Sequence record: MK524178.1
Length of the DNA stretch: 64,000 nucleotides
DNA from: Escherichia phage PHB12
Reading direction: 5' to 3' (one strand)
Notes under the pieces: model-generated
Seen by the model: only the letters and a program-made list of their open reading frames with translations
The model's database searches: none
Told to the model about the DNA's origin: nothing
Shown: piece after piece, positions 6,380-61,834 of the stretch
How positions within the stretch are numbered: the stretch's first letter is position 1
Layout: each line of letters starts with the position of its first letter
Made by a program: the position numbers and the translations under genes

Positions 6380-6396
6380 TTTTATTTGATAGGGCT

Positions 6397-6818: not shown

Positions 6819-6847
6819 TTTGATTTCCTCATGTTGTTGATAGAACT

Positions 6848-6876
6848 ATAATATCACATCTAGAGAAGAAGTAAAC
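6848..6876 (-). promoter_or_regulatory. Early promoter
   Basis: Minus-strand GTTTAC, 17 bp, TATTAT just downstream of the gene 32 terminator. Confidence 0.6.
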
Positions 6877-6907
6877 AACTTTTTTGGCAATTTACAGATA
6901 CTCAAAA

Positions 6908-6925
6908 GGGAGACCGAAGTCTCCC
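6908..6925 (-). terminator. UUCG-tetraloop terminator after gene 32 (GGGAGAC-UUCG-GUCUCCC then UUUUG)
   Basis: Perfect 7-bp stem, UUCG loop, U-run; 7 nt after gene 32 stop. Confidence 0.7.
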
Positions 6926-6931
6926 AATTTA

Positions 6932-7831
6932 TTATAGACCAGCTAACAGGTCATCGAGGTCGCCATCGTCAGAAGACGAGGAACTCATGAAGTCATCTTC
7001 AGTTTTTGCAGAACTAAAGGCTTCCATGTCTTTATCAAAATCGTCAAGGTCAGAAGCAACTTTATCTGCAACAGAAGCTGCTGCGGCTGCTGCACCACCA
7101 AGAGCGGCAGTACCAAGAACTTGATTAAATTTAGTATTCAATTCTTCAAACGATTTGAACTTATCTTTAGAAGTCATTTCAGAAAGGTCAACCATTTGTT
7201 CGAACAATTCTTTCTGGAAAGATTCATCATCAATGTTTGGAATCGCAGATTGATTCAGGAATTTAGATTCGTCGTAGTTACTAAAACCAGAAACCTGTTT
7301 AACTTTCAGCACAAAGTTAGCACCTTCCCATGGGCAAGTTACATCAACGGGAGTTTCACCCATTTCAGTATCGACTGCAATCATTGCATTGATTTTGTCC
7401 CAAATCTTTTTACCAAAACGGTATTTGAATACTTTACCTTCATTATCTGGAGCTTGTGGGTCTTTAACAACCAGGATATTAGCCCAATAAGAAGTTTTAC
7501 GTTTCAGTTGAGAATATTCTGTTTTGTTTGTATTGTACAGATCATTTTTACTAATGTACTGACATACCGGACAAGAGTCATAATCGCCGTGTGTAGATGA
7601 ACAGGTTTCAATATACCATTTACCGTTTTTCTTGAACCCGTGGTTAACAAGAATTGCAAACGGAAGTGCGTCATCTGTTTTTGCCGGCAGGAAACGAATT
7701 ACCGCTTGACCATTACCGGATGCATCGAGTTTCAGCTTCCATTCACCTTTATCTTCTGAAGAGAAACCTTTGTTACCATTCAGTTTAGCCATCTGAGCTG
7801 CGAGGTCTGCGGTACTTTTACGTTTAAACAT
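6932..7831 (-). CDS. 32: Single-stranded DNA-binding protein gp32
   Basis: 299 aa; [36 protein letters not shown] and acidic C-terminal tail [21 protein letters not shown] match T4 gp32. Confidence 0.95.
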
Positions 7832-7905
7832 TTTATTTGCCTTTATTTAGATTATTAATTAAATTTTACAGTTGGTTGCTACGACACTTATACCTCGTAG
7901 CTGGT
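7832..7905 (-). promoter_or_regulatory. Gene 32 mRNA leader: stem-loop plus A/U-rich tract (candidate gp32 translational operator)
   Basis: Minus strand: hairpin GCUACGA-N10-UCGUAGC (7878-7901) followed by AU-rich UUAAA/UAAA repeats up to the ATG, as described for T4 gene 32 autoregulation. Confidence 0.5.
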
Positions 7906-7911
7906 ATGTTT

Positions 7912-7919
7912 TATTTATA
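7912..7919 (-). promoter_or_regulatory. T4-type late promoter (TATAAATA) upstream of gene 32
   Basis: Minus-strand TATAAATA about 80 nt upstream of gene 32 ATG. Confidence 0.55.
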
Positions 7920-7948
7920 AAGTAATTTTAACACACAAGAAATAAAGC

Positions 7949-8602
7949 TTAATACTTACATGATTTGATTGTTTCTATGAACAATTTCTTAGCAGCATTT
8001 CCATCGATTTGAAGTATTTTTCGATATGCCTTTAATTTGGTAGAATAATTTTGCCAGACTAAGTTATCGGTGAGTTCGTCGTGCTTATCTATAATATTCA
8101 AAAATGAGTCCAACAATAAGAAAGTCTCAAATGAAATTATATTGCTTTGTAGCAATTTGAATATGTAGCTCGACTGAACGTTGTTATTATAATCAAATAT
8201 CTCTTGAAGCGCACTAACTTCAACTTTCTTACTGAAATAGTAGATGTTACGTACGTCTTCAGCAAACGTCTCCTTGGCTTGTTTGAGACGTCCAATATAT
8301 TCCCTATAGAAAACTAATGCATCAGCGTCTGATATCTCACCAATCCATGCGTCTTGGTTAGCAACTAAGTTGCTTATGAATATCAAGGTGAGTTCCTTCA
8401 ATTTATATTTCTCTGCTAGTTTTTCAAAGAAATATTTATCTCGGCGTTTTTGATACGCATTATCCGAAACACGCATGCACCAGTTATATTTGATTACGTC
8501 ATACCGACCACCAAAGTGGTTTTTGCACATCAAGTATAGTTTATATACTGATTTACCGTTAATATAACGTTCTCCGTCAGGAGGCATGCGTATTTTAATC
8601 AT
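7949..8602 (-). CDS. 59: Helicase loader gp59
   Basis: 217 aa; MIKIRMPPDGERYINGKSVYKLYLM; near-identical in length and sequence pattern to T4 gp59. Confidence 0.95.
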   Translation of the reverse strand: MIKIRMPPDGERYINGKSVYKLYLMCKNHFGGRYDVIKYNWCMRVSDNAYQKRRDKYFFEKLAEKYKLKELTLIFISNLVANQDAWIGEISDADALVFYREYIGRLKQAKETFAEDVRNIYYFSKKVEVSALQEIFDYNNNVQSSYIFKLLQSNIISFETFLLLDSFLNIIDKHDELTDNLVWQNYSTKLKAYRKILQIDGNAAKKLFIETIKSCKY

Positions 8603-9278
8603 AGTTCCATCCAGGCCATTTTGAAGATTTAAGTCTATACGTAACTAGAGATGCAGAAATATTAAAAACATCCGAAACTTCTGTGCATGATGAGTATTTT
8701 ATACCATCAATAATTATAGGTTTTTGTTTTTTAATAGTTCTTTCTTTAGAATGCGGCTTTGAATTTGCTATTCTAAGAGCTTCTTTGGTTGAATCAGGCA
8801 TCGGCTTATTCGTTTTTCGCCCTTTTCGGACTTTACTCAAAGCTAATTTATGAGCTTCAGATAGTTTCTTACCCTTATTAGGGGATGGTATTTTTCTTTC
8901 TAATCTGGTTTTAGATACTTTAGCCTTAGTCTCTTCAGATCTAGGTTTACCTAATTTAGAAAGTGAAATAGCCCTTTTAGCTTCATCACTTTGTTTTTTA
9001 CCAGGGCCACCTTTACCACCGGGAACTAAGTTATAAGTATCAGTTCGCAAAACAAAATCTTCATTAACCAATTCTGCTTCTTTTTTATAGGCGTCCTTGT
9101 CATTATCATATTCATAAAGAATTTCGGTATAAAAATTTTTTAGTCCATATTTAGCTTTGGCCGCTAATATAGCGCGGCCTGATCCAATATACCAATCTTT
9201 CTCTTTATGTTTTTTGTGTACGCCTATATAAATTTTACCATTTATTTTATTGGTAGTTTTATACACAACGTATTTCAT
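8595..9278 (-). CDS. Free-standing GIY-YIG homing endonuclease (Seg-like)
   Basis: 227 aa; GIY-YIG module YVVYKTTNKINGKIYIGVH...YIGSG, Lys-rich NUMOD-like linker, C-terminal DNA-binding-like region; ATGA overlap with gene 33 stop; 8-bp overlap with gene 59. Confidence 0.8.
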   Translation of the reverse strand: MKYVVYKTTNKINGKIYIGVHKKHKEKDWYIGSGRAILAAKAKYGLKNFYTEILYEYDNDKDAYKKEAELVNEDFVLRTDTYNLVPGGKGGPGKKQSDEAKRAISLSKLGKPRSEETKAKVSKTRLERKIPSPNKGKKLSEAHKLALSKVRKGRKTNKPMPDSTKEALRIANSKPHSKERTIKKQKPIIIDGIKYSSCTEVSDVFNISASLVTYRLKSSKWPGWNYD

Positions 9279-31908: not shown

Positions 31909-33009
31909 TTACGCTGTGAAGATTTTATCCCACATCGCAACAACTGCATCTCGGTTATACTTCTTCCATACTGCTTCAGCACGTTTAACTCGAGCTTCGT
32001 ATGTGTCAGTGAATTCTAATACAGCTTTTGTGTAAAGCGCAACTACTTCTTTCTTAGGAGTAGAGGAATCAATTTCTACACGCACAGTATCTGGGTCGTA
32101 TTCAAATGTCGCATGAGGATAATCCTTAAAAACTAACTGGATTACAGGGACACCTTTAGAGATGGCTTCAATAGAACTATTCTCTACCGTACCTGTGTTA
32201 GGACACGTATTAATAAGTGCTTTAGCTGTTTTAAGACGTTCCATGATTTCACTGTGTGGAGCATCAATAATAACAGGATATTTAGCTGGTGGTGCCCATT
32301 TGCTTGGACAGTATCCTACACCATTTTCGCCTAGTGCTTTAATCGCTTCAAGAGCAACATCAGTACGACGCATTTTAGTGTCATAACGTTGTGCACTAAT
32401 AATCAGATCAGTCGCCGGAAGAACTTCAGGTTTCTCATTCAAACAAATAACCGGATAATCTTCGGCTTCAAACAACGGATTTGCTCGCCAATAATCATAA
32501 TCAATTTTGTCAGTCAGACCTGAAGTCATATAACAATATTTGCGTTCAAATTCACGGAAGGCTTTAGTAGGAGCATAACTCTTACCACCATTCTTATGAA
32601 TTTGAATAGTCTGGTCCCAAATTTGAACAATGCCACGAGATACAGGTTCAAATGGTGTTGCCATAAAATTCTTATGAACTTTAGAGAGACCTGCGTCTTT
32701 AATTGCCTGAACGGTTAGTTTAGTCGGTTCCATAGTAACAACAAAATCGTATTCATGGATGCCGGCTAGTTCAACAATCTTACGAGCCATAGTATAACTC
32801 ATACCTAGACTGAATTTAGTCAGATGACCAACAGGATGGTGTGTAACTTTCCAGTCACCAAACGTGTCATTATCAAAACCGATATAATCAATATCAGCAC
32901 CAATAGAAACTAAATATTTCAACACATTTAAATGTACTGCTTCAAGGCCACCTTGTACACGGTCAGGATTAAATGGGACTGCACGAGATGGGATAAACAT
33001 AACTTTCAT
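31909..33009 (-). CDS. GT-B fold glycosyltransferase (candidate DNA hmC pentosyl/arabinosyl-transferase)
   Basis: 366 aa; C-terminal ...TGTVENSSIEAISKGVPVIQ fits the GT-B E-x7-E/GxPVI donor-binding signature; occupies the slot where T4 has gene 60/mobA. Confidence 0.7.
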   Translation of the reverse strand: MKVMFIPSRAVPFNPDRVQGGLEAVHLNVLKYLVSIGADIDYIGFDNDTFGDWKVTHHPVGHLTKFSLGMSYTMARKIVELAGIHEYDFVVTMEPTKLTVQAIKDAGLSKVHKNFMATPFEPVSRGIVQIWDQTIQIHKNGGKSYAPTKAFREFERKYCYMTSGLTDKIDYDYWRANPLFEAEDYPVICLNEKPEVLPATDLIISAQRYDTKMRRTDVALEAIKALGENGVGYCPSKWAPPAKYPVIIDAPHSEIMERLKTAKALINTCPNTGTVENSSIEAISKGVPVIQLVFKDYPHATFEYDPDTVRVEIDSSTPKKEVVALYTKAVLEFTDTYEARVKRAEAVWKKYNRDAVVAMWDKIFTA

Positions 33010-51269: not shown

Positions 51270-52434
51270 CGAAATCTTCCATTTCGTCAAGGTCGTTTTC
51301 TATATCTGCTGCAGACGGAGCATCAGAAGTTTTAACTGGAACTTTAGTTGTTGCTTTGCAATTAATAAGGTCGTTAACAGCGTCATCAACTTCTTTAATA
51401 GAAGAGATAGCACCTAGTTTATATTTAGTTTCAATTGCATCTCGGAAAGGTTTGTGTTTAAACAAAGGTCCCCAGAATTCTACACAATCAGTAGCTTTAG
51501 CACGCCATGATTTCTCTTCACGAATCATTTCGCCTGTTTCTTCGTCAAGGAATTCTCGAGCATACCACCCGGCTTTAGGCTTAACTACAAAACCAATTTC
51601 AGTTGCCATTTCTAACAAGCCACTGAATGGGTCAATACCACCATCAAAATTAACCGTGATCGGGAAAGTAGATTTTTCTTTAACGGTTCGAGATTTTTCT
51701 GCTTTCAACGTGAAGTCATAACCGGTCAATTCTGTGCCTTCTTTAACCTGACGTTTAGAGATAAAGAATACAGTGTTAGCAGAGTAAAGAATACCTGTAC
51801 CACCACCCATAATCTCTTTAGGATATAGACCGCCGATTTCCATTGCTGTATGGTTGATTGCAACACATGGAATATCTTTAATAGTCAGATAAGGAGTCAC
51901 AATGCGGAACAGAGATTTAAGTGCCTTAGCACGAGACATATCACCTACGACTTTCTCGTTCAATGCATCTTCGGTTTCTTTCTTAGATGCAGTATTACCA
52001 ATCGAGTCAATAAAGATAATAACTTTATCACCACGTTCAATCGCGTCAAGCTGATTAGTCATATCAACTTTAAGTTGTTCGACAGATTGAATCGGAGTAT
52101 GAACTACACGGTCTAAATCAACACCCATTGAACGAAAATAAGATTCTGAAGCACCAAATTCTGAATCATAGAACAAACAAATTGCATCTTTATATTTCTT
52201 CATATATGCTGCAACCATGGTCAGTCCAAACAACGTTTTAAAGTGTTTAGAAGGAGCAGCAAAAATAGTTAAGCCTGATTGCAACCCAGCATTCAGTGCA
52301 CCACCTAATGCAATATTCAACATCGGAATACGAGTAGGGACTTCATCGCGATTATTAAACAACTTAGACTTAGTCAAGTCTGCAGTCATTTTAGAAGTAG
52401 AAGCTTTAATCAGACGAGATTTTAAATCAGACAT
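51262..52434 (-). CDS. uvsX: UvsX recombinase (RecA-like)
   Basis: 390 aa; MSDLKSRLIKASTSKMTADLTKSKLFNNRDEVPTRIPMLNIALGGALNAGL matches T4 UvsX. Confidence 0.95.
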   Translation of the reverse strand: MSDLKSRLIKASTSKMTADLTKSKLFNNRDEVPTRIPMLNIALGGALNAGLQSGLTIFAAPSKHFKTLFGLTMVAAYMKKYKDAICLFYDSEFGASESYFRSMGVDLDRVVHTPIQSVEQLKVDMTNQLDAIERGDKVIIFIDSIGNTASKKETEDALNEKVVGDMSRAKALKSLFRIVTPYLTIKDIPCVAINHTAMEIGGLYPKEIMGGGTGILYSANTVFFISKRQVKEGTELTGYDFTLKAEKSRTVKEKSTFPITVNFDGGIDPFSGLLEMATEIGFVVKPKAGWYAREFLDEETGEMIREEKSWRAKATDCVEFWGPLFKHKPFRDAIETKYKLGAISSIKEVDDAVNDLINCKATTKVPVKTSDAPSAADIENDLDEMEDFDE

Positions 52435-52533
52435 TGTATTTTTCCATAGGCATCATTATATTTTACTCATGTTTAAAAGATAAGACGATTATATACTAAG
52501 GGTTATACAGCATTTAAAACTTTAAACAGGCTC

Positions 52534-53082
52534 TTAACGAGCCCATTTGATAATTTCTGTAATCAAATTATTACGTTCGCTTGCATTAAATCCTATAACT
52601 TTGTTAGCACCATCATGATTAAGTAATTGATACGTTTGGATTTTGTTATGAATTGCAAACTCTTCAAAATATGAAATGACTGTATTAAAACCAAATGAAG
52701 ACAAAGTAATAAGGTCGTCTTCAAAACTTTCAGTCATTTCGTTACGTGTTAAAATAATTGTGAACACATCATGGTTTTGGCAAAGACGAACATAATCCTG
52801 TTCATAAACGTCAAGAACCGAGTCCACATCTTGTCGAATACGTCCATAAACCCAGTTACTAATATATCCACGGTCTAACAGATAAATCTTAGTAGGGTCT
52901 AAATAATTCAACATCGTTTCGAAACAGCCAACTTCATTTCGAGACTTAACATCGAAACGTCCATCAACTGTTCGTTTAGGGAAATCAATCTTTACATATC
53001 TTTCACTAATTTCCATTATGTCATTAATGAAAGTTGTTTTACCAGCATTATCCGGGCCATCTACTAAAATAATTTTAGCCAT
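52534..53082 (-). CDS. Thymidylate-kinase-like P-loop nucleotide kinase
   Basis: 182 aa; Walker A ILVDGPDNAGKTT and DR(Y)-like LLDRGYISNWVYG as in dTMP/dNMP kinases. Confidence 0.6.
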   Translation of the reverse strand: MAKIILVDGPDNAGKTTFINDIMEISERYVKIDFPKRTVDGRFDVKSRNEVGCFETMLNYLDPTKIYLLDRGYISNWVYGRIRQDVDSVLDVYEQDYVRLCQNHDVFTIILTRNEMTESFEDDLITLSSFGFNTVISYFEEFAIHNKIQTYQLLNHDGANKVIGFNASERNNLITEIIKWAR

Positions 53083-53083
53083 T

Positions 53084-53983
53084 TTATTCCTCGATTATGA
53101 CATCTTCGTATTTAGGTATATTATACGGTGAAGAAATTAAAGCATTAAAGTAGATGAACTCACCAAGACCTGGATGGAATACTTCTTCAGGATTTTCGAA
53201 ATATTGAATCTTCGGCCGTCCTTTAAGAATTTGATAGTACTCAGTTTTAGTTGGTTTAAAAATTCGAATCAGTGCTTCTTCAGGATACTTATTTCTGTCG
53301 AAGCTATTATTTGGATCGGTTATATAAAGCGGTTGACCTAATTGAATTGCACATTCAACCACTTGTTCAAAACGATAACACGGGTCACTAATTCGAAATG
53401 GATGAAAAATACCATCTAGATGAATAGGAGCCAAATCACCTACAAGACGCTGCATGATGGAAGGACGTATAACTTTCTGCGTTACGATAATCTTATTACC
53501 ATCTGCACCTGCGTTAACCAGCACTTCTTTTTGACGTTCATTCAACACAGTAGTTTGAAGTGAACGATTAACAGACAACATGTCGGTTTTTAAGAATTCG
53601 TCAATATAAAAACGTGGTTTATTAGAGTCTGCAGTAATATTGAAATTGAATTCTACGTCAAAAGTGCCGTCATATCCAGTGATATCTGTGATTAGAAAAT
53701 CACAATCATAATAATCAATTAATGAATCAACCACAAATTCATTTTCAGACCAGAAATATTTACGAGTGTTATATGCGTTATCTTTATACCATAATGGAAC
53801 AAACTTAAATTCTGGGAAAAGACGTTCACATTCTTTAATATCAGATGCATTACGTGGATATGTAATTACATCACCCGGATTAGCACGGTGCAAATGAAGT
53901 TGGAAGTTGCCATCCTTAAGGATAGCATACTGTCCAGTTTCATAAGACCGCATACTCAAGATAGGTACGCGGAAAATAGCCAT
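53084..53983 (-). CDS. Hypothetical protein in the T4 beta-gt slot
   Basis: 299 aa; no motif assigned; sits between uvsX and gene 42 where T4 encodes beta-glucosyltransferase. Confidence 0.5.
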   Translation of the reverse strand: MAIFRVPILSMRSYETGQYAILKDGNFQLHLHRANPGDVITYPRNASDIKECERLFPEFKFVPLWYKDNAYNTRKYFWSENEFVVDSLIDYYDCDFLITDITGYDGTFDVEFNFNITADSNKPRFYIDEFLKTDMLSVNRSLQTTVLNERQKEVLVNAGADGNKIIVTQKVIRPSIMQRLVGDLAPIHLDGIFHPFRISDPCYRFEQVVECAIQLGQPLYITDPNNSFDRNKYPEEALIRIFKPTKTEYYQILKGRPKIQYFENPEEVFHPGLGEFIYFNALISSPYNIPKYEDVIIEE

Positions 53984-54699
53984 TAGTCAAGGAATCCTTT
54001 AACATAATCAAAATCACGTTCAAACACATGGGCACTTACCATGGTATGAGTATAATCACCAACTTCTACACCACATTCGTTAGCGATATAATGAAGTAAT
54101 TTTCCTTGGAGATAAAAATCCAACTGCATAACAACAGCACAGTTCTGAGAACGCATATGACAGTGGGTATAAAGCTTACCATCACGAATATAATAAGTCA
54201 CTGAGTCAGTACATGGATATTCAAGTGTTTCATCCGAATCAAGCAAAGCCTGATCTGAACTTTCAAGAATTTGAAACACAACTCTTCGTGAATTAGGTTT
54301 CTCTTTAAGTTCTTTTAGAAGAGTTGGTAACTGGGCCGCAATGCGAGGACCATAGAAAGTGTTGAAGTTCGCAGGCAAAGCATCTGATTTTGGTTTAGAA
54401 ATAAATTTAGCGACGTTAGGATATGCCTTAAATGCTTCTTCTGCATCAGTACCACCAGAAATCATAAATTTCCAGAAATCTTCAGCATATTCATAAGAGA
54501 TGCGATTAATACGTGGGTCGGTCATTTTGAATGATGAAGGGGTATCAACAACTACTGTCATAGACCCAATTTCATTACAACGTCCAATACGAGAGTCAGT
54601 AACGAACTGTGGATTTTCTAAAATTTCACGATTGACAGCTTTAAATGCGGATTGAAAATCTGCGGCTTTAATATATTTCATTGTGTTATGTTTTCCCAT
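53983..54699 (-). CDS. 42: dCMP hydroxymethylase homolog (thymidylate-synthase family), divergent
   Basis: 238 aa; catalytic YPCTDSV, PNSRRVVFQ, and HMRSQNCAVVMQLDFY with Asp at the position aligning to T4 D179 (cytosine specificity); I estimate about 30-35% identity to T4 gp42 by eye. Confidence 0.8.
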   Translation of the reverse strand: MGKHNTMKYIKAADFQSAFKAVNREILENPQFVTDSRIGRCNEIGSMTVVVDTPSSFKMTDPRINRISYEYAEDFWKFMISGGTDAEEAFKAYPNVAKFISKPKSDALPANFNTFYGPRIAAQLPTLLKELKEKPNSRRVVFQILESSDQALLDSDETLEYPCTDSVTYYIRDGKLYTHCHMRSQNCAVVMQLDFYLQGKLLHYIANECGVEVGDYTHTMVSAHVFERDFDYVKGFLD

Positions 54700-54978
54700 G
54701 TTTACCTCAATACAGTTATTATATACTCAATTCATAAAAGCTTATTTGAATTTCTTAGCGATGTTGATATAACGTAAAGCTTCAGCATCGATACTTCCAA
54801 GAACACTATGAAGAAATGCATCAGCGTAGTATTCTAGTTGAACAGGTTTCTTTAATCACTTTAGCCGCTTTAGTTTCAAACAGGCCCATAAGGGCCTTTT
54901 TAAGAATTTGTTCGTTGCTGTTAATTTTCATAGTCAAAATCTCTTCATTAAGTTGGTGGTTAAAAGTTTTTCTAGAAA

Positions 54979-56139
54979 TCATTCCGGGTACCTCAAAGCG
55001 TCATCAGAGTTAGTTATATCAATAATAGATATAGAGTTTTCTGCTAACCCATTTTTAGATAACTGACGTTTATAATATCTTTCACAATATGTACACGTCG
55101 TCCCGCAGATTTCATTAGCACAATCGAAATCTGGATGTCTGAACCACCTTTTTTCTAAAAAGCCATCTAACAAAGAGGTTTCAATATTTACTGTATGTGA
55201 AAACTCGGTTTCGTTTTCAAGAGTGAAAATAGTCTCTAAAGGCTTCCACAATTCCAACAAATTACCTTCAAATTTTTCAGAAGCATAAGCTTCAAGAACT
55301 TTCAAAATGTAGTCTGTGCTACCTGTACGTCCTGAAACTTTGAATTGAGTGATACCAATATCATTATAAAGTTTCAAATCTTGAGGACGAACAAAACGAG
55401 TTCTCAACCAGTTAAATGGGTCTGTATCACGAGCTTTAATACAGTGTTGCATTGGATATCCATTTAAGGATTTGGCATCATCTACTGTAACGTCGGTGCT
55501 ATGGAAAATATAGCAAGAGTCACGATAGCTACAATGTGTTGTATACCCTTTACCAGCATTAGAACAGAACTCATTTACAAGAACTTCAAATATTATATTG
55601 TTCTTATTACAAAACTCTGCTGCGCGTTTCAGGAAAGAAACTGAACGGTTCTTATGAATTCCACAGCAGACCTTTTTGATATTATATTGGTCATGCAAAT
55701 ATTTGATTTGAGTTACAGCATCAACATGTAGAATTGTTGAAACTTCAATCTCAATGTCTTTATTGACTTCACGAACAATTTCCATAACAACAGGGTTAGC
55801 GATAGTAATACGCCATACGCCTATTGACCAAAGATACTGAACATAATCCTGAATAGCTTTCTTCTTCCACTCAACTAGTTCTCTTTTTGAACCAGGATTT
55901 ATCGTGTTGAGTGTATAGTTAAAGCAAATACCTAATTCGTTACAACGTTTAACATAATCTTCTAACATCTTTTTGTCAACGTCAGGAAGCCTAAAATCAG
56001 GTCTGGCTGCTACAAAAGCCATTTCTCTTGTAGAGCCGTATACTTCGTTTATCAAGCTATTAGGATAAGTTTTATTGAGCTCTACGATTTTATCAAGAAG
56101 AGCTAAATCAAAATTCGTTCCGATTTTAAAGGTATTCAT
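54979..56139 (-). CDS. Peptidase-U32-family-like protein with Cys clusters
   Basis: 386 aa; FEVLVNEFCSNAGKGYTTHCSY resembles the U32 signature (E-[IV]-F-V-x-G-A-L-C...G-x-C); C-terminal CANEICGTTCTYC; assignment from motif recollection only. Confidence 0.45.
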   Translation of the reverse strand: MNTFKIGTNFDLALLDKIVELNKTYPNSLINEVYGSTREMAFVAARPDFRLPDVDKKMLEDYVKRCNELGICFNYTLNTINPGSKRELVEWKKKAIQDYVQYLWSIGVWRITIANPVVMEIVREVNKDIEIEVSTILHVDAVTQIKYLHDQYNIKKVCCGIHKNRSVSFLKRAAEFCNKNNIIFEVLVNEFCSNAGKGYTTHCSYRDSCYIFHSTDVTVDDAKSLNGYPMQHCIKARDTDPFNWLRTRFVRPQDLKLYNDIGITQFKVSGRTGSTDYILKVLEAYASEKFEGNLLELWKPLETIFTLENETEFSHTVNIETSLLDGFLEKRWFRHPDFDCANEICGTTCTYCERYYKRQLSKNGLAENSISIIDITNSDDALRYPE

Positions 56140-56193
56140 TTTTGCATCTCGCGTTAATTGTTGCGATGGTTTTTGCAGGTCTTACTTAAATTA

Positions 56194-56580
56194 TTATAGA
56201 TTCGGTTTATATGATTTAAATGTTTCGAATTCGCCTTTATTCATAAGAGCTTTGAATTCGTCAGGACGCATAGCTTTGTCGTCGATAATCCAATCATATA
56301 CTGGTTTATGTGTTAGCAAATTATGGTACTTCAATCCAATGTTTGCCAAGTTCTGAATCAGACTTGGGAGAATGTCAATTGCTATACGACCAGGACCGAC
56401 TGACTTCATACCGCGAGCAGTGTAAAGAGTTATTGTATGCCCTGCATCATACAGGGCATTAATGGCAGACACCATTTCGACGTCTGGTTTGAAGTTCACG
56501 TAATCACGATTGTTATTCCACTCTGTTATACAATCATCGACATCAAAACAAAGATTAAGCATGTTTTCTACACGGTGCAT
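56194..56580 (-). CDS. Small HAD-like phosphatase (candidate sugar-phosphate phosphatase)
   Basis: About 128 aa from ATG 56580 (TAATG coupling); HAD-like motif I FDVDDCIT, motif II ITLYTARG, motif IV WIIDDK. Confidence 0.5.
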   Translation of the reverse strand: MHRVENMLNLCFDVDDCITEWNNNRDYVNFKPDVEMVSAINALYDAGHTITLYTARGMKSVGPGRIAIDILPSLIQNLANIGLKYHNLLTHKPVYDWIIDDKAMRPDEFKALMNKGEFETFKSYKPNL

Positions 56581-58265
56581 TAGATTCGTTCCCATTGATG
56601 AGTGATATCGCCACCGATTGGACGATAGGAAACACCAGTTTCTTTATCAGTTAGTACCCATTTACCAGGATTTTTTGTAATCAGAGTAGCCGTTACAGGT
56701 TCTGCTACGTCATAACTAATAGAGCCGTCTTGAAGTACACGGCCCATGTTACGTAATTGCTTAGTCAGAAGTTCCATACCTTTATAATATGCGGCTACCG
56801 CTTTAAGTGGATTATTCTTGAAATAACCACCTAATGCAATCCAGATAATTGCTACAGCCAAATGATGATATTCATTAAACGAACTCATCTTTCCATATTT
56901 GTAAACTAATGGATTGATGTTAATAGTCACATTACAAGTTGTTTCATCAATAGTAAACTGTCCCCAGGTCGGATTAGCGTTGAATTCATCATAACCTGAA
57001 ACAGCATAAAGCACTTTAGCTTCATCGTACAATTTTGGCCCATAAATCTTGGTTTCGCCAAAATATCCACGAGGGTCGATAAACTTAACTTCGCCGTTAT
57101 CAGTAATCATAGTATTACTGAAGTTCGGGTCACCATGAATAACAGAGTACTGTCCCTGAGAACGATTATGATAACGAATAAGGTGTTCTAAAGCTTGTTT
57201 CAGCATTGGCTTCAGACGTCCAATCTTAGTGTAGTTCACATGTGTGATTTTACCAAATGAATCAATCAATGGTTGAATGCTTTCACAACGATCAATAACT
57301 TTCGTATAGAATTCTTTAGTGAAATCACGACGAACAGTTTCAGGACTTACAAAATAAGTGTCTGTGCTGAATTTCAGTGCATCTAAAATTGCATCAACAA
57401 TTTGTGGACGAGCAAGACTCGATTTGGATTTAATATATTCAAATGCCGGCTTACCTTTAATGCGTTCCATTTCAAAGTTATTTTCATTAACAGAAACTAA
57501 CTGAGGAACTGAATCTGATTTCACTTTAAGATACCATGAAATCTCATCTTTCTGAAGAGCTCGGCCCTGTTCGGTTAATGCGAATTTAGTTACAGTTTCT
57601 TCACCAATTTCAACTGCATTAAAACTACGATTAAGTTCACGAACTTCATGAGCTTTTTCAAGTTTAGGCATATCACCTAAATCAATTAGATTCATAAGCT
57701 CTGATTTATTGAATGCGCTGCCGTAAAGGAATTCTACGAAATCACGTCCTTTGCAGTATTCATGAATTTCCTCATCAGTAGAACCCATATAGAATTCCCA
57801 GTCTTTGAACTGATAAATTCCTACAACATTACCACCTGTTGAACCTACGTTAGTGATATTTTCACCGTCGAAATTATATCGACATTCGTCACCCTTAACA
57901 TAGATTGCGTTAACATTCCAAGACCATGAGCCAAAATCAGGAATAATATCACACCAGTTAACAATTACATTATGGCCGTCTAAATCTTTGTGTAATTTAG
58001 CAAGAGCATAAGCAGAACCATACGCTTCATCAACTGTACGAATAGTCACATTGAACCCTTCTTGCTCACAATAAGCTCGAACAGTTTCAGCAAATTTTGA
58101 ATGAACTACTACAATAATTTCATCTGCGCCAAGGTCAGAATAAATTGTATACAAATTGCTCAGAATAGTGTCTTGTTTATAGTTAACAAGCACCTTAGGA
58201 ATATGATGCGTTATTGGATACAAACGAGTTGCCAGTCCAGCACCAAGAATAACAGCTTTTTTCAT
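56580..58265 (-). CDS. Bifunctional sugar-1-phosphate nucleotidyltransferase / APH-ChoK-like sugar kinase
   Basis: 561 aa; N-terminal KAVILGAGLATRLYPIT (NTP-transferase G-x-G-T-R), C-terminal VIHGDPNFSNTMI...KFIDPRG (Brenner H-G-D-x4-N and D-x-E kinase motifs). Confidence 0.75.
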   Translation of the reverse strand: MKKAVILGAGLATRLYPITHHIPKVLVNYKQDTILSNLYTIYSDLGADEIIVVVHSKFAETVRAYCEQEGFNVTIRTVDEAYGSAYALAKLHKDLDGHNVIVNWCDIIPDFGSWSWNVNAIYVKGDECRYNFDGENITNVGSTGGNVVGIYQFKDWEFYMGSTDEEIHEYCKGRDFVEFLYGSAFNKSELMNLIDLGDMPKLEKAHEVRELNRSFNAVEIGEETVTKFALTEQGRALQKDEISWYLKVKSDSVPQLVSVNENNFEMERIKGKPAFEYIKSKSSLARPQIVDAILDALKFSTDTYFVSPETVRRDFTKEFYTKVIDRCESIQPLIDSFGKITHVNYTKIGRLKPMLKQALEHLIRYHNRSQGQYSVIHGDPNFSNTMITDNGEVKFIDPRGYFGETKIYGPKLYDEAKVLYAVSGYDEFNANPTWGQFTIDETTCNVTININPLVYKYGKMSSFNEYHHLAVAIIWIALGGYFKNNPLKAVAAYYKGMELLTKQLRNMGRVLQDGSISYDVAEPVTATLITKNPGKWVLTDKETGVSYRPIGGDITHQWERI

Positions 58266-58306
58266 GTTGTGGTCCTCATTGGTAAGTAGGAGTATTGTAC
58301 ACTATT

Positions 58307-58450
58307 CTAGTTAAAGCATTCATACTTTGCTTGTAGTCCAATCATAATCCATCCGATTATAAGAGTCGGAATCATTACTGGAGCCGTTAAGCTCCAGTAG
58401 ATAGTCATGACAAGCATCAATAGTAAAAGTCCTATTGTTATTGCTTTCAT
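58307..58450 (-). CDS. Putative small membrane protein (47 aa)
   Basis: Manual translation MKAITIGLLLLMLVMTIYWSLTAPVMIPTLIIGWIMIGLQ...; ATGA coupled to SIS gene stop. Confidence 0.3.
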   Translation of the reverse strand: MKAITIGLLLLMLVMTIYWSLTAPVMIPTLIIGWIMIGLQAKYECFN

Positions 58451-59082
58451 TGTTCGCCTCGTAACATGGCACCTAGTGCACCGCCAGGGTGGAACTTAAG
58501 GAAGTCATTAGAGGTAAATCCACGTTCAGACGAAAGGTTGATAGCAAACGTATCGATAAGCGCTAACAACAATGTAGTGGACATGGTCGGAGCCAGAGAA
58601 TTCTCATCGACCTCTACTGCGATGCCTGTACAGAACGTATAATCAAAAAGAGCTTCGTATTCTTGTGGAATGTCTGGGTTACAATGCAACAGAATCTGTT
58701 TGACGTTCGGACGAATCATTTTAAGATGCTTAGCCACGCCTATCATTTCTTCAGTTTTACCGGAACGACTAATATGAATCAACACATCATTAGGCGCAAT
58801 GAATCCTGCATCACCGTGAGAATAATGCCCAGTGTTCAAGTACATACTCGGGATACCGAGTGAAGCAAATGTCTCAGAAGCTTTAGTTGCAATATTAGCA
58901 TTCTTACCAACACCTGTAATAATTACTCGGCTTTCATAATTACTAAGTCCAGGGCGTCGAAGAGTTTCTAGAATAGCATTATAACGAGCAGGGTTTTGAC
59001 TAATTACTTTGGCCATAGCGGCCAAAGAAGAAGCTTGTTTTATGATTGCGTCAATAGCGATAGTAATAGGAGTAGTTTTCAT
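58447..59082 (-). CDS. SIS-domain sugar-phosphate isomerase (KdsD/GutQ-like; candidate arabinose-5-phosphate isomerase)
   Basis: 211 aa; ITGVGKNANIATKASETFASLGIPS and C-terminal HPGGALG are SIS-domain hallmarks. Confidence 0.75.
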   Translation of the reverse strand: MKTTPITIAIDAIIKQASSLAAMAKVISQNPARYNAILETLRRPGLSNYESRVIITGVGKNANIATKASETFASLGIPSMYLNTGHYSHGDAGFIAPNDVLIHISRSGKTEEMIGVAKHLKMIRPNVKQILLHCNPDIPQEYEALFDYTFCTGIAVEVDENSLAPTMSTTLLLALIDTFAINLSSERGFTSNDFLKFHPGGALGAMLRGEQ

Positions 59083-59122
59083 ATTTCTCTCATTTAATTA
59101 GTTTGCCGTCAATGTCATTATA

Positions 59123-61834
59123 TCAAAAATCGAACATATCGAACAGAGATGCTTTCTTCTCGTAATCGAGTTTCGCTGCTGATGTGAATCCTTCAAGTGG
59201 TTTAATAAATGTCTTCTCAAGGAGAACAGTGTAGTCCATCCAATGAAGTACGTCGTCTTTAATTAAATCTGTGATTTCAGTGCCAGAAGGCCATGCGATA
59301 CATTTATCACCGAATGGGTTTCCTTCACGTAAAGGCAGAACATATACTTTTTCACCTTCTACAACTTGTGGTGCATCGATATTACCTTTGATAGCCCGGT
59401 TATACGTCAGAATTCCACGAATATGGAATGGGCATTTGGGACCAGGGAATCCACCTACGTCATATTTAGCAATGTTATTCGCAGAAGATACCGACGCGAT
59501 GCTAATATAATTCAATTGACGGAATTCTTTTTCAAACTCTTTAAAATATTCTTGTAATGATTCTTCACCTTCTTGAAGCATACGACGAATACATTCTTTA
59601 AGAGCTTTCTGTACTGCTTTAGGAGTCGAAGATTTCTGAGTCTCTAGACCCATGATTTTGAGTTTAGGCTCAGCGTAACGAGTACCTTCCATATCCCACA
59701 CGTTTAATGCATAACGTTTCTTACCAGTCCAGAATCCACCAATACCTTTAGAACCTAATGGAGGCCCAGCGATAGCTTCTCGGTCCATGAACATTAAGTG
59801 TTGTTTATTGTTCATGTATTCACACATTTCACGGAAACCTCTATCAATAGCTGGTTCCATACGTTCACGTGCAAACTTATCTAAGAAGTCTACCCAATGG
59901 TTGGTATCACGGAATTTAGATTCACCAACCTTATCGATAATTTTATCAGCAGATACGTAAATAGAGTCTGTATCACCATAAAGAACGAAAGCTTCACCTT
60001 CTGTACCACAAACTTCATTCAGATATTCATTAACTTTACGTTCAATCCACTGTAAAGCCATTTGACCAAATGTTGTGATTGCAGTAGCATTACGCAAATC
60101 ATAATAACGGAACCAAACGTTTCCAAGTGCACCATAAAGTGAGTTGATAAGCAATTTACGGTTAATTTGAGCAGTCATACCTGCAACTTCAGTACGTTGA
60201 GCTCTAAACAACATTTCATTAAGAGATTTAGCAGACAACTTTTTAATCTTTTCTTTAATCTCATCACTGAAGTCGAAACGATAATCAACATCTAATGGTT
60301 CGTCAACAGAAAGATTAGGATTATGCAATGCCTCTTTAATTATTTCACCATTACGTTGAGCTGCAAGCATGTAACCTTTATGTTCTTTACGTTGATTAAA
60401 GACCTTAGTGATTTCAGTTGGAACTACACCATCACGGTCTTTATAATACATCATGCCGTTAGGAGAGCAACTGTACACATCTGAAGGACGTTCAGCAACA
60501 GCGTTAATATAATCATGCAATGGAGCTACTTTAAACGTTCCTGCTATTGTTTCTGGGCTAATATTCACTTGGCGAATAATACTTGGATACAGAGATGTAA
60601 GGTCGAAACTCATTACATATTTGTATCGATTCGGAATAGGTTCCTTAACAAAAGCGCCGGGATAAGGTTGAACCGGGTGAGAACGACCTTGTGGAATCAC
60701 CTTGTTCTGCTCTTTAAGGCTATTAAAAATAATAGCATCCCATGTTTTAATTGGACTAAACACAGATTGAATCTGTATCTTAGCATAATAACCCATGTCC
60801 AAACTCAAGTTGATGAACTGACGCTTAGCATCAATTTGCAATACACGGTACACGTCGATAATGTTATAAGAAATATATCGTTGGTGATTGCTTTCACGAA
60901 GCTTAGAAATAGGGCCGTCATATTTCAGTTTACCAACGTTCAATTCAAATTCTGAAATGTAATCCAGAGAATATGATGGTTGATTGGTAAAAGAGAATTT
61001 TTTGTAAAGGTCAATGTAATCAAGAACAGAGATACCGAACAATGTAATGATTTCACGAGAACCATACATGTTTTCGATAACTTTAACACGAGTTTTACGA
61101 TGTGGTGATAAACGTTTCGCAGTAGATTCGCCAAAAATATTCTTGATTCGGTTATACACATACGGAATATCAAATGACTCAACGTTCCATCCAGTCAAAA
61201 TGACAGGAGTTTTCTGTTGCCAGAAGTTGAGATATTCCATCAACAATTCTTTTTCGTTATCGAACGGCATATAAATGATTTTATCGATAATTTCAGATGG
61301 AACTTCATCACCACCTTGTTCTTGAAGCTTAGCAGCGATTTCAATAGACCATTCTTCTACATTACCATATGGAGAATTCAATAGATCAAATACATAGAAC
61401 CTGTCGTCAATTGAGTCATAATGGGTGATAGCATCAATCGGATGTTTTGCTTGTGACGGCTCAGGGAACCCATCCGGAGATGTTACTTCGATGTCGAAGT
61501 TAGCCACACGAATTTTTGTATGGTCATATTTGATTTCATAGTTATAAGTGTCAGACAAATACGCCAATTTGAAATCGTCCATGCCAAGTGCTTCAAGTCC
61601 GATATCTTCCATGCGTTTAATCCATTGGGAGGCATCACGCATATTGGCGAACAACTTACGAGTACACGGCTTACCGTAGATATCGAAATATTTCGTAGCC
61701 TGACTTTCTGGGCAATGAGCAAACAGTGATGGTTTATATTCTACTTCACGAGTACGTTCACGGCCATTAGAATCGATGTAACGTTCAAAAATTGAATCAC
61801 CAATCTGTTCAACCGTTAAGTAAAATTCTTTCAT
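59123..61834 (-). CDS. 43: DNA polymerase gp43 (family B)
   Basis: 903 aa; exo motif FDIEV, pol motifs SLYPSI, YGDTDS; N-terminus matches my recollection of RB69 gp43 (903 aa). Confidence 0.97.
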   Translation of the reverse strand: MKEFYLTVEQIGDSIFERYIDSNGRERTREVEYKPSLFAHCPESQATKYFDIYGKPCTRKLFANMRDASQWIKRMEDIGLEALGMDDFKLAYLSDTYNYEIKYDHTKIRVANFDIEVTSPDGFPEPSQAKHPIDAITHYDSIDDRFYVFDLLNSPYGNVEEWSIEIAAKLQEQGGDEVPSEIIDKIIYMPFDNEKELLMEYLNFWQQKTPVILTGWNVESFDIPYVYNRIKNIFGESTAKRLSPHRKTRVKVIENMYGSREIITLFGISVLDYIDLYKKFSFTNQPSYSLDYISEFELNVGKLKYDGPISKLRESNHQRYISYNIIDVYRVLQIDAKRQFINLSLDMGYYAKIQIQSVFSPIKTWDAIIFNSLKEQNKVIPQGRSHPVQPYPGAFVKEPIPNRYKYVMSFDLTSLYPSIIRQVNISPETIAGTFKVAPLHDYINAVAERPSDVYSCSPNGMMYYKDRDGVVPTEITKVFNQRKEHKGYMLAAQRNGEIIKEALHNPNLSVDEPLDVDYRFDFSDEIKEKIKKLSAKSLNEMLFRAQRTEVAGMTAQINRKLLINSLYGALGNVWFRYYDLRNATAITTFGQMALQWIERKVNEYLNEVCGTEGEAFVLYGDTDSIYVSADKIIDKVGESKFRDTNHWVDFLDKFARERMEPAIDRGFREMCEYMNNKQHLMFMDREAIAGPPLGSKGIGGFWTGKKRYALNVWDMEGTRYAEPKLKIMGLETQKSSTPKAVQKALKECIRRMLQEGEESLQEYFKEFEKEFRQLNYISIASVSSANNIAKYDVGGFPGPKCPFHIRGILTYNRAIKGNIDAPQVVEGEKVYVLPLREGNPFGDKCIAWPSGTEITDLIKDDVLHWMDYTVLLEKTFIKPLEGFTSAAKLDYEKKASLFDMFDF

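What the first reader, a model, noticed from the sequence alone, without database searches (positions are those of the whole stretch)
56194..59082. Phage-encoded nucleotide-sugar biosynthesis operon (SIS isomerase, HAD phosphatase, fused anomeric kinase/nucleotidyltransferase) inside the replication gene block
Four co-directional, translationally coupled genes sit between gene 42 and gene 43, where T4 has only imm. Their motifs imply an SIS-domain sugar-phosphate isomerase (KdsD/GutQ-like), a small HAD-type phosphatase, and a single 561-aa protein fusing an NTP-transferase domain (GAGLATRL) to an APH/ChoK-like kinase domain (HGDPNFSN ... IDPRG). Together they form a complete route: ribulose-5-P to arabinose-5-P, to free arabinose, to arabinose-1-P, to NDP-arabinose. 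Next to a dCMP hydroxymethylase homolog this points to synthesis of a pentosyl donor for decorating hmC in phage DNA. RB69-like phages are reported to carry arabinosyl-hmC, but the per-gene enzymology assigned here is my inference.
Basis: partly seen in the sequence, partly recalled or inferred. Interest (0 to 1): 0.85.

Follow-up and report, generated by a model that had tools for sequence, protein, structure and literature searches.

The report
Phage UDP-arabinose operon for DNA decoration
This RB69-like phage really does carry a small operon that makes an activated arabinose sugar for decorating its own DNA, but the pathway was already published in 2018-2026.

Summary
On the minus strand between the DNA polymerase gene and a thymidylate-synthase homolog lie four genes. 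They are a single-domain SIS arabinose-5-phosphate isomerase (58447-59082), a 47-aa membrane ORF, a 561-aa sugar-1-P nucleotidyltransferase + APH/choline-kinase-like kinase fusion (56580-58265), and a small HAD phosphatase (56194-56580).

Lee et al. (NAR 2026), who summarise He et al. 2026 and cite Mahler et al. 2025, report this route: Ru5P to A5P, then Araf-1,5-bisP (kinase), then Araf-1-P (HAD), then UDP-Araf. Free arabinose is not an intermediate. The acceptor is 5-hydroxycytosine, made by an O2/flavin-dependent TS homolog, not hmC made by a gene-42 hydroxymethylase.

Verdict: real, and already known.

The most interesting lead lies just outside the coordinates. The adjacent U32 gene (54979-56139) is at least 80% conserved across genera. 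In 51 related phage records a chorismate mutase gene lies beside the TS homolog, and in Entb_45 it sits directly between U32 and that gene. It may be an O2-independent, prephenate-dependent cytosine hydroxylase.

The parts
58447..59082 (-). Single-domain SIS arabinose-5-phosphate isomerase (211 aa; RB69p055 homolog). Converts ribulose-5-P to arabinose-5-P.
   Evidence: Pfam SIS 1.7e-10. TIGR00393 KpsF/GutQ 2.2e-32 and KdsD model 1.2e-30, matching only the SIS part of those models. PDB 3etn 5.5e-25, 5uqi 6e-23, 2xhz 6.5e-19. Motifs GVGKN (57), HGDAG (89), SRSGKTEE (105), HPGGALG (198). phrog_5670 'arabinose 5-phosphate isomerase' 2e-116.
58307..58450 (-). 47-aa ORF with two hydrophobic segments (RB69p054 homolog). 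Function unknown; its start overlaps the SIS stop (ATGA).
   Evidence: ORF. Full-length match to phrog_3610 (4.5e-27, 47/47). Hydropathy. Junction sequence.
57651..58265 (-). N-terminal domain (about residues 1-205) of the 561-aa protein: sugar-1-phosphate nucleotidyltransferase. Converts Araf-1-P + UTP to UDP-Araf.
56580..57650 (-). C-terminal part (about residues 206-561) of the 561-aa protein: APH/choline-kinase-like (protein-kinase-like) kinase domain plus a short beta-rich tail. Converts arabinose-5-P + ATP to Araf-1,5-bisphosphate.
56194..56580 (-). Small cap-less HAD phosphatase (128 aa from the ATG at 56580; RB69p051 / AfhF homolog). Converts Araf-1,5-bisP to Araf-1-P.
   Evidence: 100% identical over 129 residues to PDB 9iqw; 1xpj 5e-10. 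TIGR01689 capsule-biosynthesis phosphatase 4e-13. HAD motifs FDVDD, YTAR, THKP, IIDDK. TAATG overlap with the upstream gene. Function from the literature.
54979..56139 (-). Context: U32-family Fe-S protein (386 aa; RB69p050). Role unproven; proposed here to be an O2-independent cytosine C5 hydroxylase.
   Evidence: Pfam Peptidase_U32 6e-11. AF2 pLDDT 91; top PDB hit U32 Mk0906 5d88. Ten invariant Cys. Best E. coli paralog match is RlhA. See Noticed in passing and the section on the most novel reading.
54743..54982 (-). Context: remnant of the 79-aa RB69p049 gene, broken here by a +1 A frameshift.
   Evidence: Intact in RB69, nonsense codon in phage F2, frameshift in this window.
53983..54699 (-). 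Context: thymidylate-synthase homolog = 5-hydroxy-dCMP synthase (RB69p048 homolog), not a dCMP hydroxymethylase.
   Evidence: 99% identical to PDB 9iqc/9ir2. MRSQN signature. Function shown for RB69 gp48 in PMC13326640.
53084..53983 (-). Context: 299-aa protein in the position of RB69p046:47, the predicted first DNA arabinosyltransferase.
   Evidence: Synteny and about 98% DNA identity to Mosigvirus genomes. No Pfam or PDB sequence hit. Assignment from PMC13326640 Table 1.
52534..53082 (-). Context: P-loop thymidylate-kinase-like nucleotide kinase (RB69p045 homolog).
   Evidence: ORF with GPDNAGKT motif. Weak dTMP-kinase hit. RefSeq annotation. PMC13326640 Table 1.
31909..33009 (-). Context, distant in the window: second predicted DNA arabinosyltransferase (RB69p003 homolog), between rIIA and topoisomerase gp39.
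   Evidence: 99% identical (362/366) to RB69p003. Role predicted in PMC6024577 and PMC13326640.

Best explanation
The block is the UDP-D-arabinofuranose biosynthesis operon of an RB69-like (Mosigvirus) phage.

Step 1: the single-domain SIS enzyme isomerises host ribulose-5-phosphate to D-arabinose-5-phosphate.
Step 2: the C-terminal APH/choline-kinase-like domain of the 561-aa protein phosphorylates C1, giving arabinofuranose-1,5-bisphosphate.
Step 3: the small HAD phosphatase removes the 5-phosphate, giving arabinofuranose-1-phosphate.
Step 4: the N-terminal nucleotidyltransferase domain of the same 561-aa protein condenses this with UTP to give UDP-arabinofuranose.

Phage glycosyltransferases (53084-53983 and 31909-33009) then transfer arabinose onto 5-hydroxycytosine in replicated phage DNA. 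That base is supplied as 5-hydroxy-dCMP by the adjacent thymidylate-synthase homolog. The decorated DNA resists restriction enzymes and, per the cited literature, CRISPR-Cas.

Shown here: the folds, motifs, orthology and synteny. Taken from the literature: substrates, order of steps, UDP as the carrier, and the structure of the DNA adduct. Inferred: that this particular phage behaves like RB69 and HY126.
For: Gene anatomy and motifs.

Identity of the phage: about 98% DNA identity to RB69 and many Mosigviruses over the block. HAD 100% identical to PDB 9iqw. TS homolog 99% identical to PDB 9iqc. 561-aa protein 100% identical in several Mosigvirus records.

Folds: API; HAD; NT domain; kinase domain. 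The AF2 model has pLDDT 94.2 and pTM 0.91.

Functional linkage independent of the literature:
- The order SIS, NT-kinase, HAD is conserved in Acinetobacter, Pseudomonas and Enterobacter phages of other subfamilies.
- Distant homologs occur as single four-domain polypeptides, HAD-SIS-NT-kinase.

Literature: RB69 DNA carries arabinosyl-5-hydroxycytosine. gp55, gp52:53 and gp51 are assigned to exactly these steps. HY126 AfhE is reported as an arabinose-5-P kinase plus UDP-arabinose pyrophosphorylase, and AfhF as the Mg-dependent bisphosphate phosphatase (PMC13326640).
Against: - No experiment exists on this exact genome.
- The primary biochemical papers (He et al. 2026; Mahler et al. 2025) are not in the library. 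The step order rests on the summary of them in Lee et al.
- Table 1 of that paper still lists the older 'A5P to free arabinose to Ara-1-P' wording, while its text adopts the bisphosphate route.
- Pfam kinase matches are all below gathering score.
- Sequence alone does not fix the nucleotide (UDP versus GDP or CDP) or the kinase substrate.
- I infer, but cannot verify, that PDB 9iqw and 9iqc come from phage HY126.
Confidence: 0.9

Rival explanations
1. The HAD dephosphorylates arabinose-5-P to free D-arabinose, the kinase domain then phosphorylates the anomeric carbon of the free sugar, and the NT domain makes NDP-arabinose.
For: The kinase domain belongs to the APH/choline-kinase-like group. 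From general knowledge, this group includes anomeric kinases of free sugars such as AmgK, which works with MurU. MurU is among the best structural matches of the NT domain. Table 1 of PMC13326640 still words the steps this way.
Against: The text of PMC13326640 reports that HY126 AfhE is an arabinose-5-phosphate kinase and that AfhF dephosphorylates Araf-1,5-bisP. The window's HAD is 100% identical to PDB 9iqw, which I presume is AfhF. The gene set (SIS isomerase + bifunctional kinase/NT + HAD) mirrors the ADP-heptose pathway, which runs through a bisphosphate (established knowledge).
Confidence: 0.07
2. The operon makes a nucleotide sugar for something other than DNA, such as a host capsule or LPS-like modification. 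This is what database names like 'capsule biosynthesis protein', 'GlmU' and 'phosphoheptose isomerase' suggest.
For: Annotations in public records. The HAD matches TIGR01689 'capsule biosynthesis phosphatase'. The API's nearest solved relative is a capsule-associated isomerase.
Against: The genes always sit in the replication/nucleotide-metabolism block next to the 5hodCMP synthase and DNA glycosyltransferases, across many phage genera. Arabinose is found on virion DNA of RB69 and DLP3. All hits to the named families are below their curated cut-offs.
Confidence: 0.02
3. The product is a different NDP-pentose in this phage: another nucleotide carrier, or another pentose as was suggested for Shewanella phage Thanatos.
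For: Nucleotide specificity cannot be read from the sequence. The best NT matches include CTP-, dTTP-, UTP- and GTP-using enzymes. The Thanatos homolog (54% identical) was discussed in the context of xylose and a deoxypentose.
Against: About 98% identity to RB69, where arabinose was determined chemically. HY126 AfhE is reported to make UDP-D-arabinose. The API homology fixes arabinose-5-P as the entry sugar.
Confidence: 0.05

Closest known systems
Arabinosyl-5-hydroxycytosine pathway of RB69 (gp55, gp52:53, gp51), Acinetobacter phage DLP3 (gp83, gp82, gp81) and coliphage HY126 (AfhE, AfhF). Sources: Thomas 2018; Mahler 2025; He 2026; Lee 2026.
   Same: Orthologous genes in the same order and position. 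About 98% DNA identity to RB69. HAD 100% identical to PDB 9iqw and TS homolog 99% identical to PDB 9iqc. Same predicted product, UDP-Araf.
   Different: Nothing of substance. In this window the 561-aa gene is a single ORF, whereas the RB69 GenBank record splits it through a sequencing error. The small p049 gene is frameshifted here.
ADP-heptose pathway GmhA / HldE / GmhB (or HddC) of Gram-negative bacteria
   Different: From general knowledge, the HldE kinase is a PfkB/ribokinase-type enzyme and its transferase is of the cytidylyltransferase type, so the bifunctional enzymes are analogous, not homologous. The sugar is a heptose and the carrier is ADP or GDP.
LicA / LicC (choline kinase + CTP:phosphocholine cytidylyltransferase) and AmgK / MurU (MurNAc anomeric kinase + uridylyltransferase)
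   Different: In the solved examples these are separate proteins. Their substrates are choline or a free amino sugar, not a sugar 5-phosphate. No HAD step is needed.
Single-domain arabinose-5-phosphate isomerases (B. fragilis 3etn; 5uqi) and KdsD / GutQ / KpsF
   Same: SIS domain with the family's conserved motifs. Best sequence matches in the PDB and NCBIfam.
   Different: Lacks the tandem CBS domains of KdsD and GutQ. Feeds DNA decoration rather than Kdo or capsule synthesis.
T4 hmC glucosylation (gene 42, alpha-gt, beta-gt)
   Same: Same genomic neighbourhood and the same strategy: a TS-family enzyme makes a hydroxylated dCMP, and glycosyltransferases decorate the DNA after replication.
   Different: T4 uses host UDP-glucose, so it needs no sugar-nucleotide operon. 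Its base is 5-hydroxymethylcytosine, made with folate and without O2.

Membership tests
Phage arabinosyl-5hoC (Afh / RB69 gp45-55) gene cluster | HAD phosphatase orthologous to RB69 gp51 / AfhF | tested here: met
   100% identity over 129 residues to PDB 9iqw. Syntenic with RB69p051.
Phage arabinosyl-5hoC (Afh / RB69 gp45-55) gene cluster | Single bifunctional nucleotidyltransferase + kinase polypeptide of about 560 aa | tested here: met
   561-aa ORF. Both domains confirmed. 100% identical to proteins of other Mosigviruses.
Phage arabinosyl-5hoC (Afh / RB69 gp45-55) gene cluster | Arabinose-5-phosphate isomerase gene upstream | tested here: met
Phage arabinosyl-5hoC (Afh / RB69 gp45-55) gene cluster | TS homolog of the 5hodCMP-synthase type (Asn in place of ThyA D169) | tested here: met
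   MRSQN motif. 99% identical to PDB 9iqc. Signature defined in PMC13326640.
Phage arabinosyl-5hoC (Afh / RB69 gp45-55) gene cluster | DNA arabinosyltransferase genes | tested here: met
   299-aa ORF syntenic with RB69p046:47. 366-aa ORF 99% identical to RB69p003.
Phage arabinosyl-5hoC (Afh / RB69 gp45-55) gene cluster | Production of UDP-Araf and presence of arabinosyl-5hoC in virion DNA | not testable with these tools
   Needs enzyme assays and nucleoside LC-MS. Known for RB69, DLP3 and HY126 only from the literature.
KdsD / GutQ / KpsF arabinose-5-phosphate isomerases | SIS domain with the family's sequence signature | tested here: met
   TIGR00393 2.2e-32 (112.7 bits) and KdsD model 1.2e-30. 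Both are below the full-length cut-offs because only the SIS part aligns. PDB 3etn, 5uqi, 2xhz.
KdsD / GutQ / KpsF arabinose-5-phosphate isomerases | C-terminal tandem CBS domains | tested here: not met
   The protein is 211 aa. Matches cover KdsD model positions 47-202 of 328 only. It therefore resembles the single-domain APIs (3etn, 5uqi).
HAD-superfamily phosphatases | Four catalytic motifs (DxD, T/S, K, DD) | tested here: met
   FDVDD (12), YTAR (53), THKP (90), IIDDK (98). These align with the same motifs of 1xpj. No Pfam HAD model hits it.
Sugar-1-phosphate nucleotidyltransferases (RmlA / MurU / LicC type) | G-x-G-x-x-R-L loop, conserved Lys, and the Rossmann-like fold | tested here: met
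APH / choline-kinase-like (protein-kinase-like) small-molecule kinases | Beta3 Lys, alphaC Glu, HxDxxxxN catalytic loop, Mg-binding Asp | tested here: met
ADP-heptose pathway enzymes (GmhA / HldE / GmhB) | Homology of the bifunctional enzyme to HldE | tested here: not met
   No HldE match in Pfam, NCBIfam or PDB searches. The kinase fold is APH-like. Only the pathway logic is shared.
U32-family prephenate-dependent hydroxylases (RlhA, TrhP, UbiU/V), applied to the neighbouring gene 54979-56139 | U32 domain above the curated threshold | tested here: met
   Pfam Peptidase_U32 42.4 bits versus a 22.4 cut-off. Top PDB fold hit is U32 Mk0906.
U32-family prephenate-dependent hydroxylases (RlhA, TrhP, UbiU/V), applied to the neighbouring gene 54979-56139 | Conserved Cys ligands for a 4Fe-4S cluster | tested here: inconclusive
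   Ten invariant Cys in 36 homologs. The C203...C209-Y motif aligns with the RlhA Cys motif. The spacing differs from UbiU, and cluster binding is untested.
U32-family prephenate-dependent hydroxylases (RlhA, TrhP, UbiU/V), applied to the neighbouring gene 54979-56139 | Dependence on prephenate, and hydroxylase activity | not testable with these tools
   Indirect only. A chorismate mutase gene lies under or next to the TS-homolog annotation in 51 related phage records, and directly between U32 and the TS homolog in Entb_45. There is none in this window.

The most novel reading that the evidence does not exclude
The gene immediately downstream of the operon (54979-56139, RB69p050, annotated 'peptidase U32') may be an O2-independent, prephenate-dependent pyrimidine C5 hydroxylase. 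It would let the phage make 5-hydroxycytosine in the anoxic gut, where its O2/flavin-dependent TS-homolog hydroxylase cannot work. This would be a phage version of E. coli's dual aerobic/anaerobic hydroxylation pathways (TrhO/TrhP; UbiI,H,F/UbiU,V).

Related phages in 51 records also carry a chorismate mutase gene beside the TS homolog, and in Entb_45 it sits directly between U32 and the TS homolog. That enzyme would supply the O-donor. Homologs 50-58% identical sit beside dCMP deaminase, dNK, NT5C and replication genes in other, very large phage-like contigs. This suggests a wider family of viral anaerobic nucleotide hydroxylases.

I found no paper in the searchable library making this link. 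He et al. 2026 and Mahler et al. 2025 could not be read.
Probability: 0.35. Interest if true: 0.75.

Novelty: already known. Interest (0 to 1): 0.25.

Why it matters
The operon explains how RB69-like phages obtain a sugar donor that E. coli does not make, so that they can coat every cytosine with arabinose and escape restriction enzymes and, per the cited literature, CRISPR-Cas. That is relevant to phage therapy and to enzymatic synthesis of glycosylated DNA, but it is now textbook-level for this group and adds nothing new.

What could matter is the neighbouring U32 gene. If it is an anaerobic cytosine hydroxylase, it would be the first U32 enzyme acting on a DNA precursor. It would give a tractable in vivo read-out for prephenate-dependent hydroxylation, for which no in vitro assay yet exists according to PMC10990095. 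It would also explain how a gut phage keeps an O2-requiring DNA modification.

Tried and rejected
- Promoter/terminator scan of 52400-59300: matches were no more frequent than in shuffles, so no operon boundaries could be drawn.
- He et al. 2026 and Mahler et al. 2025 are not held. The AfhE/AfhF search found only the Lee et al. paper.
- Is RB69p049, the 79-aa gene in the slot where other genera have chorismate mutase, a divergent chorismate mutase? I found no support: no Pfam or NCBIfam hit and no BLASTP similarity. It carries independent inactivating lesions in this window and in phage F2.
- A clean 'U32 only in phages of facultative anaerobes' rule is rejected as stated. U32 is absent from the Acinetobacter and Pseudomonas phage clusters examined and is not among the top organism names (versus 57 Acinetobacter records for the NT-kinase). 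However, the E. coli Dhakavirus Bp7 has the 5hoC-type TS homolog and also lacks U32.
- afdb50 fold search for U32: the library was not available.
- The 299-aa glycosyltransferase and U32 have no PDB sequence relatives.


Full report
**What is there.** All genes in 52.5-62 kb of the window are on the minus strand. Downstream of the DNA polymerase gene (59123-61834, whose product I recognise from memory as RB69-type gp43; the block maps beside RB69 gene 43) the order is as follows:
- a 211-aa SIS protein (58447-59082);
- a 47-aa hydrophobic ORF (58307-58450);
- a 561-aa protein (56580-58265);
- a small HAD protein (56194-56580/56595);
- a 386-aa U32-family protein (54979-56139);
- a broken small ORF;
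- a thymidylate-synthase homolog (53983-54699);
- a 299-aa protein (53084-53983);
- a P-loop kinase (52534-53082).

The block 56194-59082 is 97.9% identical to RB69 and up to 99.0% identical to other Mosigvirus-like genomes. About 150 phage records carry it at 95% identity or more. RB69's own record splits the 561-aa gene into ORF052c/053c. Thomas et al. showed this split to be a sequencing error (PMC6024577).

**Check of the observation.** The quoted motifs are present at residues 8 (GAGLATRL), 377 (HGDPNFSN) and 396 (IDPRG) of the 561-aa protein.
- Gene junctions: SIS/47-aa overlap as ATGA. The 47-aa ORF and the 561-aa gene are 41 nt apart, and the latter has a GAGGA ribosome-binding site. 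The 561-aa stop overlaps an ATG as TAATG.
- That ATG (56580) gives a 128-aa HAD. This agrees with the RB69p051 annotation and with the construct in PDB 9iqw, so it is the more likely start.
- Consensus promoter and terminator matches are at background level.

One of the 'four genes' is a tiny membrane ORF. Coupling by overlap holds at two of three junctions. Two further genes separate the block from the TS homolog. The HAD start is 15 nt downstream of the stated end.

**Folds, tested independently.**
- *SIS protein.* Pfam SIS 1.7e-10. KpsF/GutQ family model 2.2e-32 and KdsD model 1.2e-30, aligned only over the SIS half of those models. PDB 3etn 5.5e-25, 5uqi 6e-23 and the KdsD SIS domain 2xhz 6.5e-19. 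It lacks the CBS pair, so it is a single-domain arabinose-5-phosphate isomerase.
- *HAD.* No Pfam hit. It is 100% identical over 129 residues to PDB 9iqw, matches 1xpj at 5e-10, and has all four HAD motifs.
- *561-aa protein.* An alignment of 52 homologs gave an AlphaFold2 model with pLDDT 94.2 and pTM 0.91.
  - A profile of ten C-terminal domains hits APH(2'') at 2.5e-7.
  - The protein-kinase-like catalytic residues K227, E241, D379, N384 and D397 are invariant, and H377 is nearly invariant.

**Evidence that the three enzymes work together.** The order SIS, NT-kinase, HAD recurs next to a TS homolog in Enterobacter phage Entb_45, Acinetobacter phage DLP2 and Pseudomonas phage PspYZU05, which belong to different subfamilies. 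More distant homologs (31-35% identity) are single polypeptides of about 890-955 aa. Six were scanned: four show HAD, SIS and NTP-transferase matches in that order, and three of those four also carry a weak kinase-family match. One of these lies in a giant-virus-like contig. Thomas et al. had already noted a Butyrivibrio fusion of the NT-kinase with a SIS domain.

**What the literature says.**
- Lee et al. (NAR 2026, PMC13326640) show by MS and NMR that RB69 and DLP3 DNA contains mono- and poly-arabinosylated 5-hydroxycytosine, linked through an ether oxygen.
- They show that RB69 gp48, the TS homolog, makes 5-hydroxy-dCMP using O2 and a flavin.
- They assign gp55, gp52:53 and gp51 to UDP-arabinofuranose synthesis.
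- Summarising He et al. (Nat Chem Biol 2026, phage HY126), they state that AfhE is both an arabinose-5-phosphate kinase and a UDP-arabinose pyrophosphorylase, and that AfhF is a Mg-dependent phosphatase converting Araf-1,5-bisP to Araf-1-P.
- The window's TS homolog is 99% identical to PDB 9iqc/9ir2 and its HAD is identical to 9iqw. I take these, by inference, to be the HY126 structures.
- I could not read He et al. or Mahler et al. directly.

**Verdict on the interpretation.** Three points were wrong.
- The predicted middle steps (A5P to free arabinose to Ara-1-P) are contradicted by the reported biochemistry. The pathway follows the logic of ADP-heptose synthesis (SIS isomerase, bifunctional kinase/transferase, HAD bisphosphate phosphatase), although the kinase is of a different fold.
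- The acceptor is 5-hydroxycytosine, not hmC.
- The neighbour is not a hydroxymethylase. It carries the MRSQN signature of the hydroxylase branch.

The finding is real but already known.

**A lead outside the coordinates: the U32 gene.** The next gene (54979-56139) is a U32-family protein (Pfam 6e-11). Lee et al. list it only as a 'sugar or heterocycle reductase' in Table 1 and do not discuss it. Several observations suggest a more specific role.
1. U32 proteins RlhA (5-hydroxycytidine in 23S rRNA), TrhP (5-hydroxyuridine in tRNA) and UbiU/V are linked to O2-independent hydroxylation. Prephenate is the O donor for UbiU/V and is required for TrhP (PMC5727448, PMC6599085, PMC10990095).
2. In 51 phage records of other genera, a gene for an AroQ chorismate mutase, the enzyme that makes prephenate, lies under or next to the TS-homolog annotation, and in Entb_45 it sits directly between the U32 gene and the TS homolog (Pfam CM_2 2.4e-10).
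3. The U32 protein is 80-89% identical across genera in which the NT-kinase is only 43-73% identical.
4. U32 is found in 221 phage records, and none of the listed organism groups is Acinetobacter. The NT-kinase occurs in 57 Acinetobacter phage records. The DLP2 and PspYZU05 clusters lack both U32 and chorismate mutase.
5. Homologs 50-58% identical lie in other phage-like contigs beside dCMP deaminase, a DnaE-type polymerase, UDG, thymidylate kinase and SSB, or beside NT5C, a deoxynucleoside kinase, a nucleoside deoxyribosyltransferase and a second U32.
6. Ten cysteines are invariant in 36 homologs, including a C-terminal CX4CX3CX2C. The model is confident (pLDDT 91) and its best PDB match is the U32 protein Mk0906.
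7. Among the four E. coli U32 paralogs, the family profile aligns best with RlhA: hhalign probability 76%, E 2.3e-5, 203 columns. TrhP gives 10%, UbiU 5% and UbiV 0.4%.

The TS-homolog hydroxylase needs O2, yet these phages replace all cytosine and infect gut bacteria. An anaerobic back-up hydroxylase is therefore a coherent hypothesis.

Counter-evidence:
- The E. coli Dhakavirus Bp7 has the hydroxylase-type TS homolog but no U32, chorismate mutase or SIS gene.
- This window has no chorismate mutase. The unrelated p049 gene occupies that slot and is decaying.
- Nothing is known experimentally.

I found no paper linking U32 to phage DNA modification in the searchable library.

**Scores.** The operon itself is an accurate rediscovery of published biology: novelty 'already known', interest 0.25. 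The U32 reading is the most novel possibility left open. I give it a probability of about 0.35 of being both true and new, and an interest of about 0.75 if so.

Noticed in passing
window 54979-56139 (-): U32-family gene directly downstream of the operon. It is at least 80% identical across phage genera, has ten invariant Cys, and its best E. coli paralog match is RlhA (the 5-hydroxycytidine synthase). Possible O2-independent cytosine hydroxylase.
   Followed up: partly
L005:6158-6397 (Enterobacter phage Entb_45), plus 50 other phage records: An AroQ chorismate mutase gene sits between the U32 gene and the 5hodCMP-synthase gene in Entb_45, and lies beside the TS homolog in Kanagawavirus, Klebsiella, Serratia, Yersinia, Edwardsiella, Shewanella, Providencia, Morganella, Erwinia and Pectobacterium phages. 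Prephenate is the O-donor of U32 hydroxylases.
   Followed up: partly
window 54743-54982 (-): The RB69p049 homolog (79 aa in RB69) is broken here by a +1 A frameshift (AAAGAAACC versus AAAGAACC). In phage F2 it is broken by a GAA-to-TAA nonsense codon. These are independent lesions, so the gene looks dispensable or decaying. It shows no similarity to chorismate mutase.
   Followed up: yes
L002:8001-10781 (GCA_013558355.1 contig JACCDH010973257.1); also P0088, P0089, P0091, P0092, P0095, P0109: Four-domain single polypeptides, HAD-SIS-nucleotidyltransferase-kinase (about 890-955 aa), are distant homologs of the phage NT-kinase. P0084 lies between MutS7-HNH, RNA polymerase Rpb2 and RNA_pol_N genes, which is a giant-virus-like context. 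One member comes from a eukaryote transcriptome.
   Followed up: partly
L009:7001-8086, L012:7001-8083, L010:7001-8098: Homologs of the phage U32 protein (50-58% identical) lie in other phage-like contigs, one of them 466 kb. They sit next to dCMP deaminase, DnaE-type polymerase, UDG, thymidylate kinase and SSB, or next to NT5C, dNK, nucleoside deoxyribosyltransferase, a radical-SAM protein and a second U32 gene.
   Followed up: partly
L006 (Escherichia phage Bp7, Dhakavirus) 4062-9151: Bp7 keeps imm, the NT-kinase, the HAD, the kinase, a hydroxylase-type TS homolog and a GT, but has no recognisable SIS isomerase, U32 or chorismate mutase. It presumably relies on the host's KdsD/GutQ for arabinose-5-P.
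   Followed up: partly
window 58307-58450 (-): A 47-aa ORF with two hydrophobic segments lies inside the operon, and its start overlaps the SIS stop codon. It is a full-length member of phrog_3610, of unknown function.
   Followed up: partly
window 55084-55122 (-), U32 residues 340-352: An invariant C-terminal CX4CX3CX2C motif contains a CX3CX2C spacing like that of radical-SAM clusters. It may bind a second metal or Fe-S site in addition to the U32 core cysteines.
   Followed up: no
L017 (Escherichia phage F2, NC_054913.1): F2 is the closest record to this block (98-99% identity) and carries the whole arabinosylation cluster, yet the record's taxonomy places it in Tequatrovirus rather than Mosigvirus.
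   Followed up: no
hit H51/H206 (Escherichia phage NRG-P0074, PQ480333.1): In this relative the block aligns in two pieces spanning about 700 extra bases. A homing endonuclease and a 'dCMP deaminase' are annotated under the NT-kinase match, which suggests a mobile-endonuclease insertion in or beside the operon.
   Followed up: no
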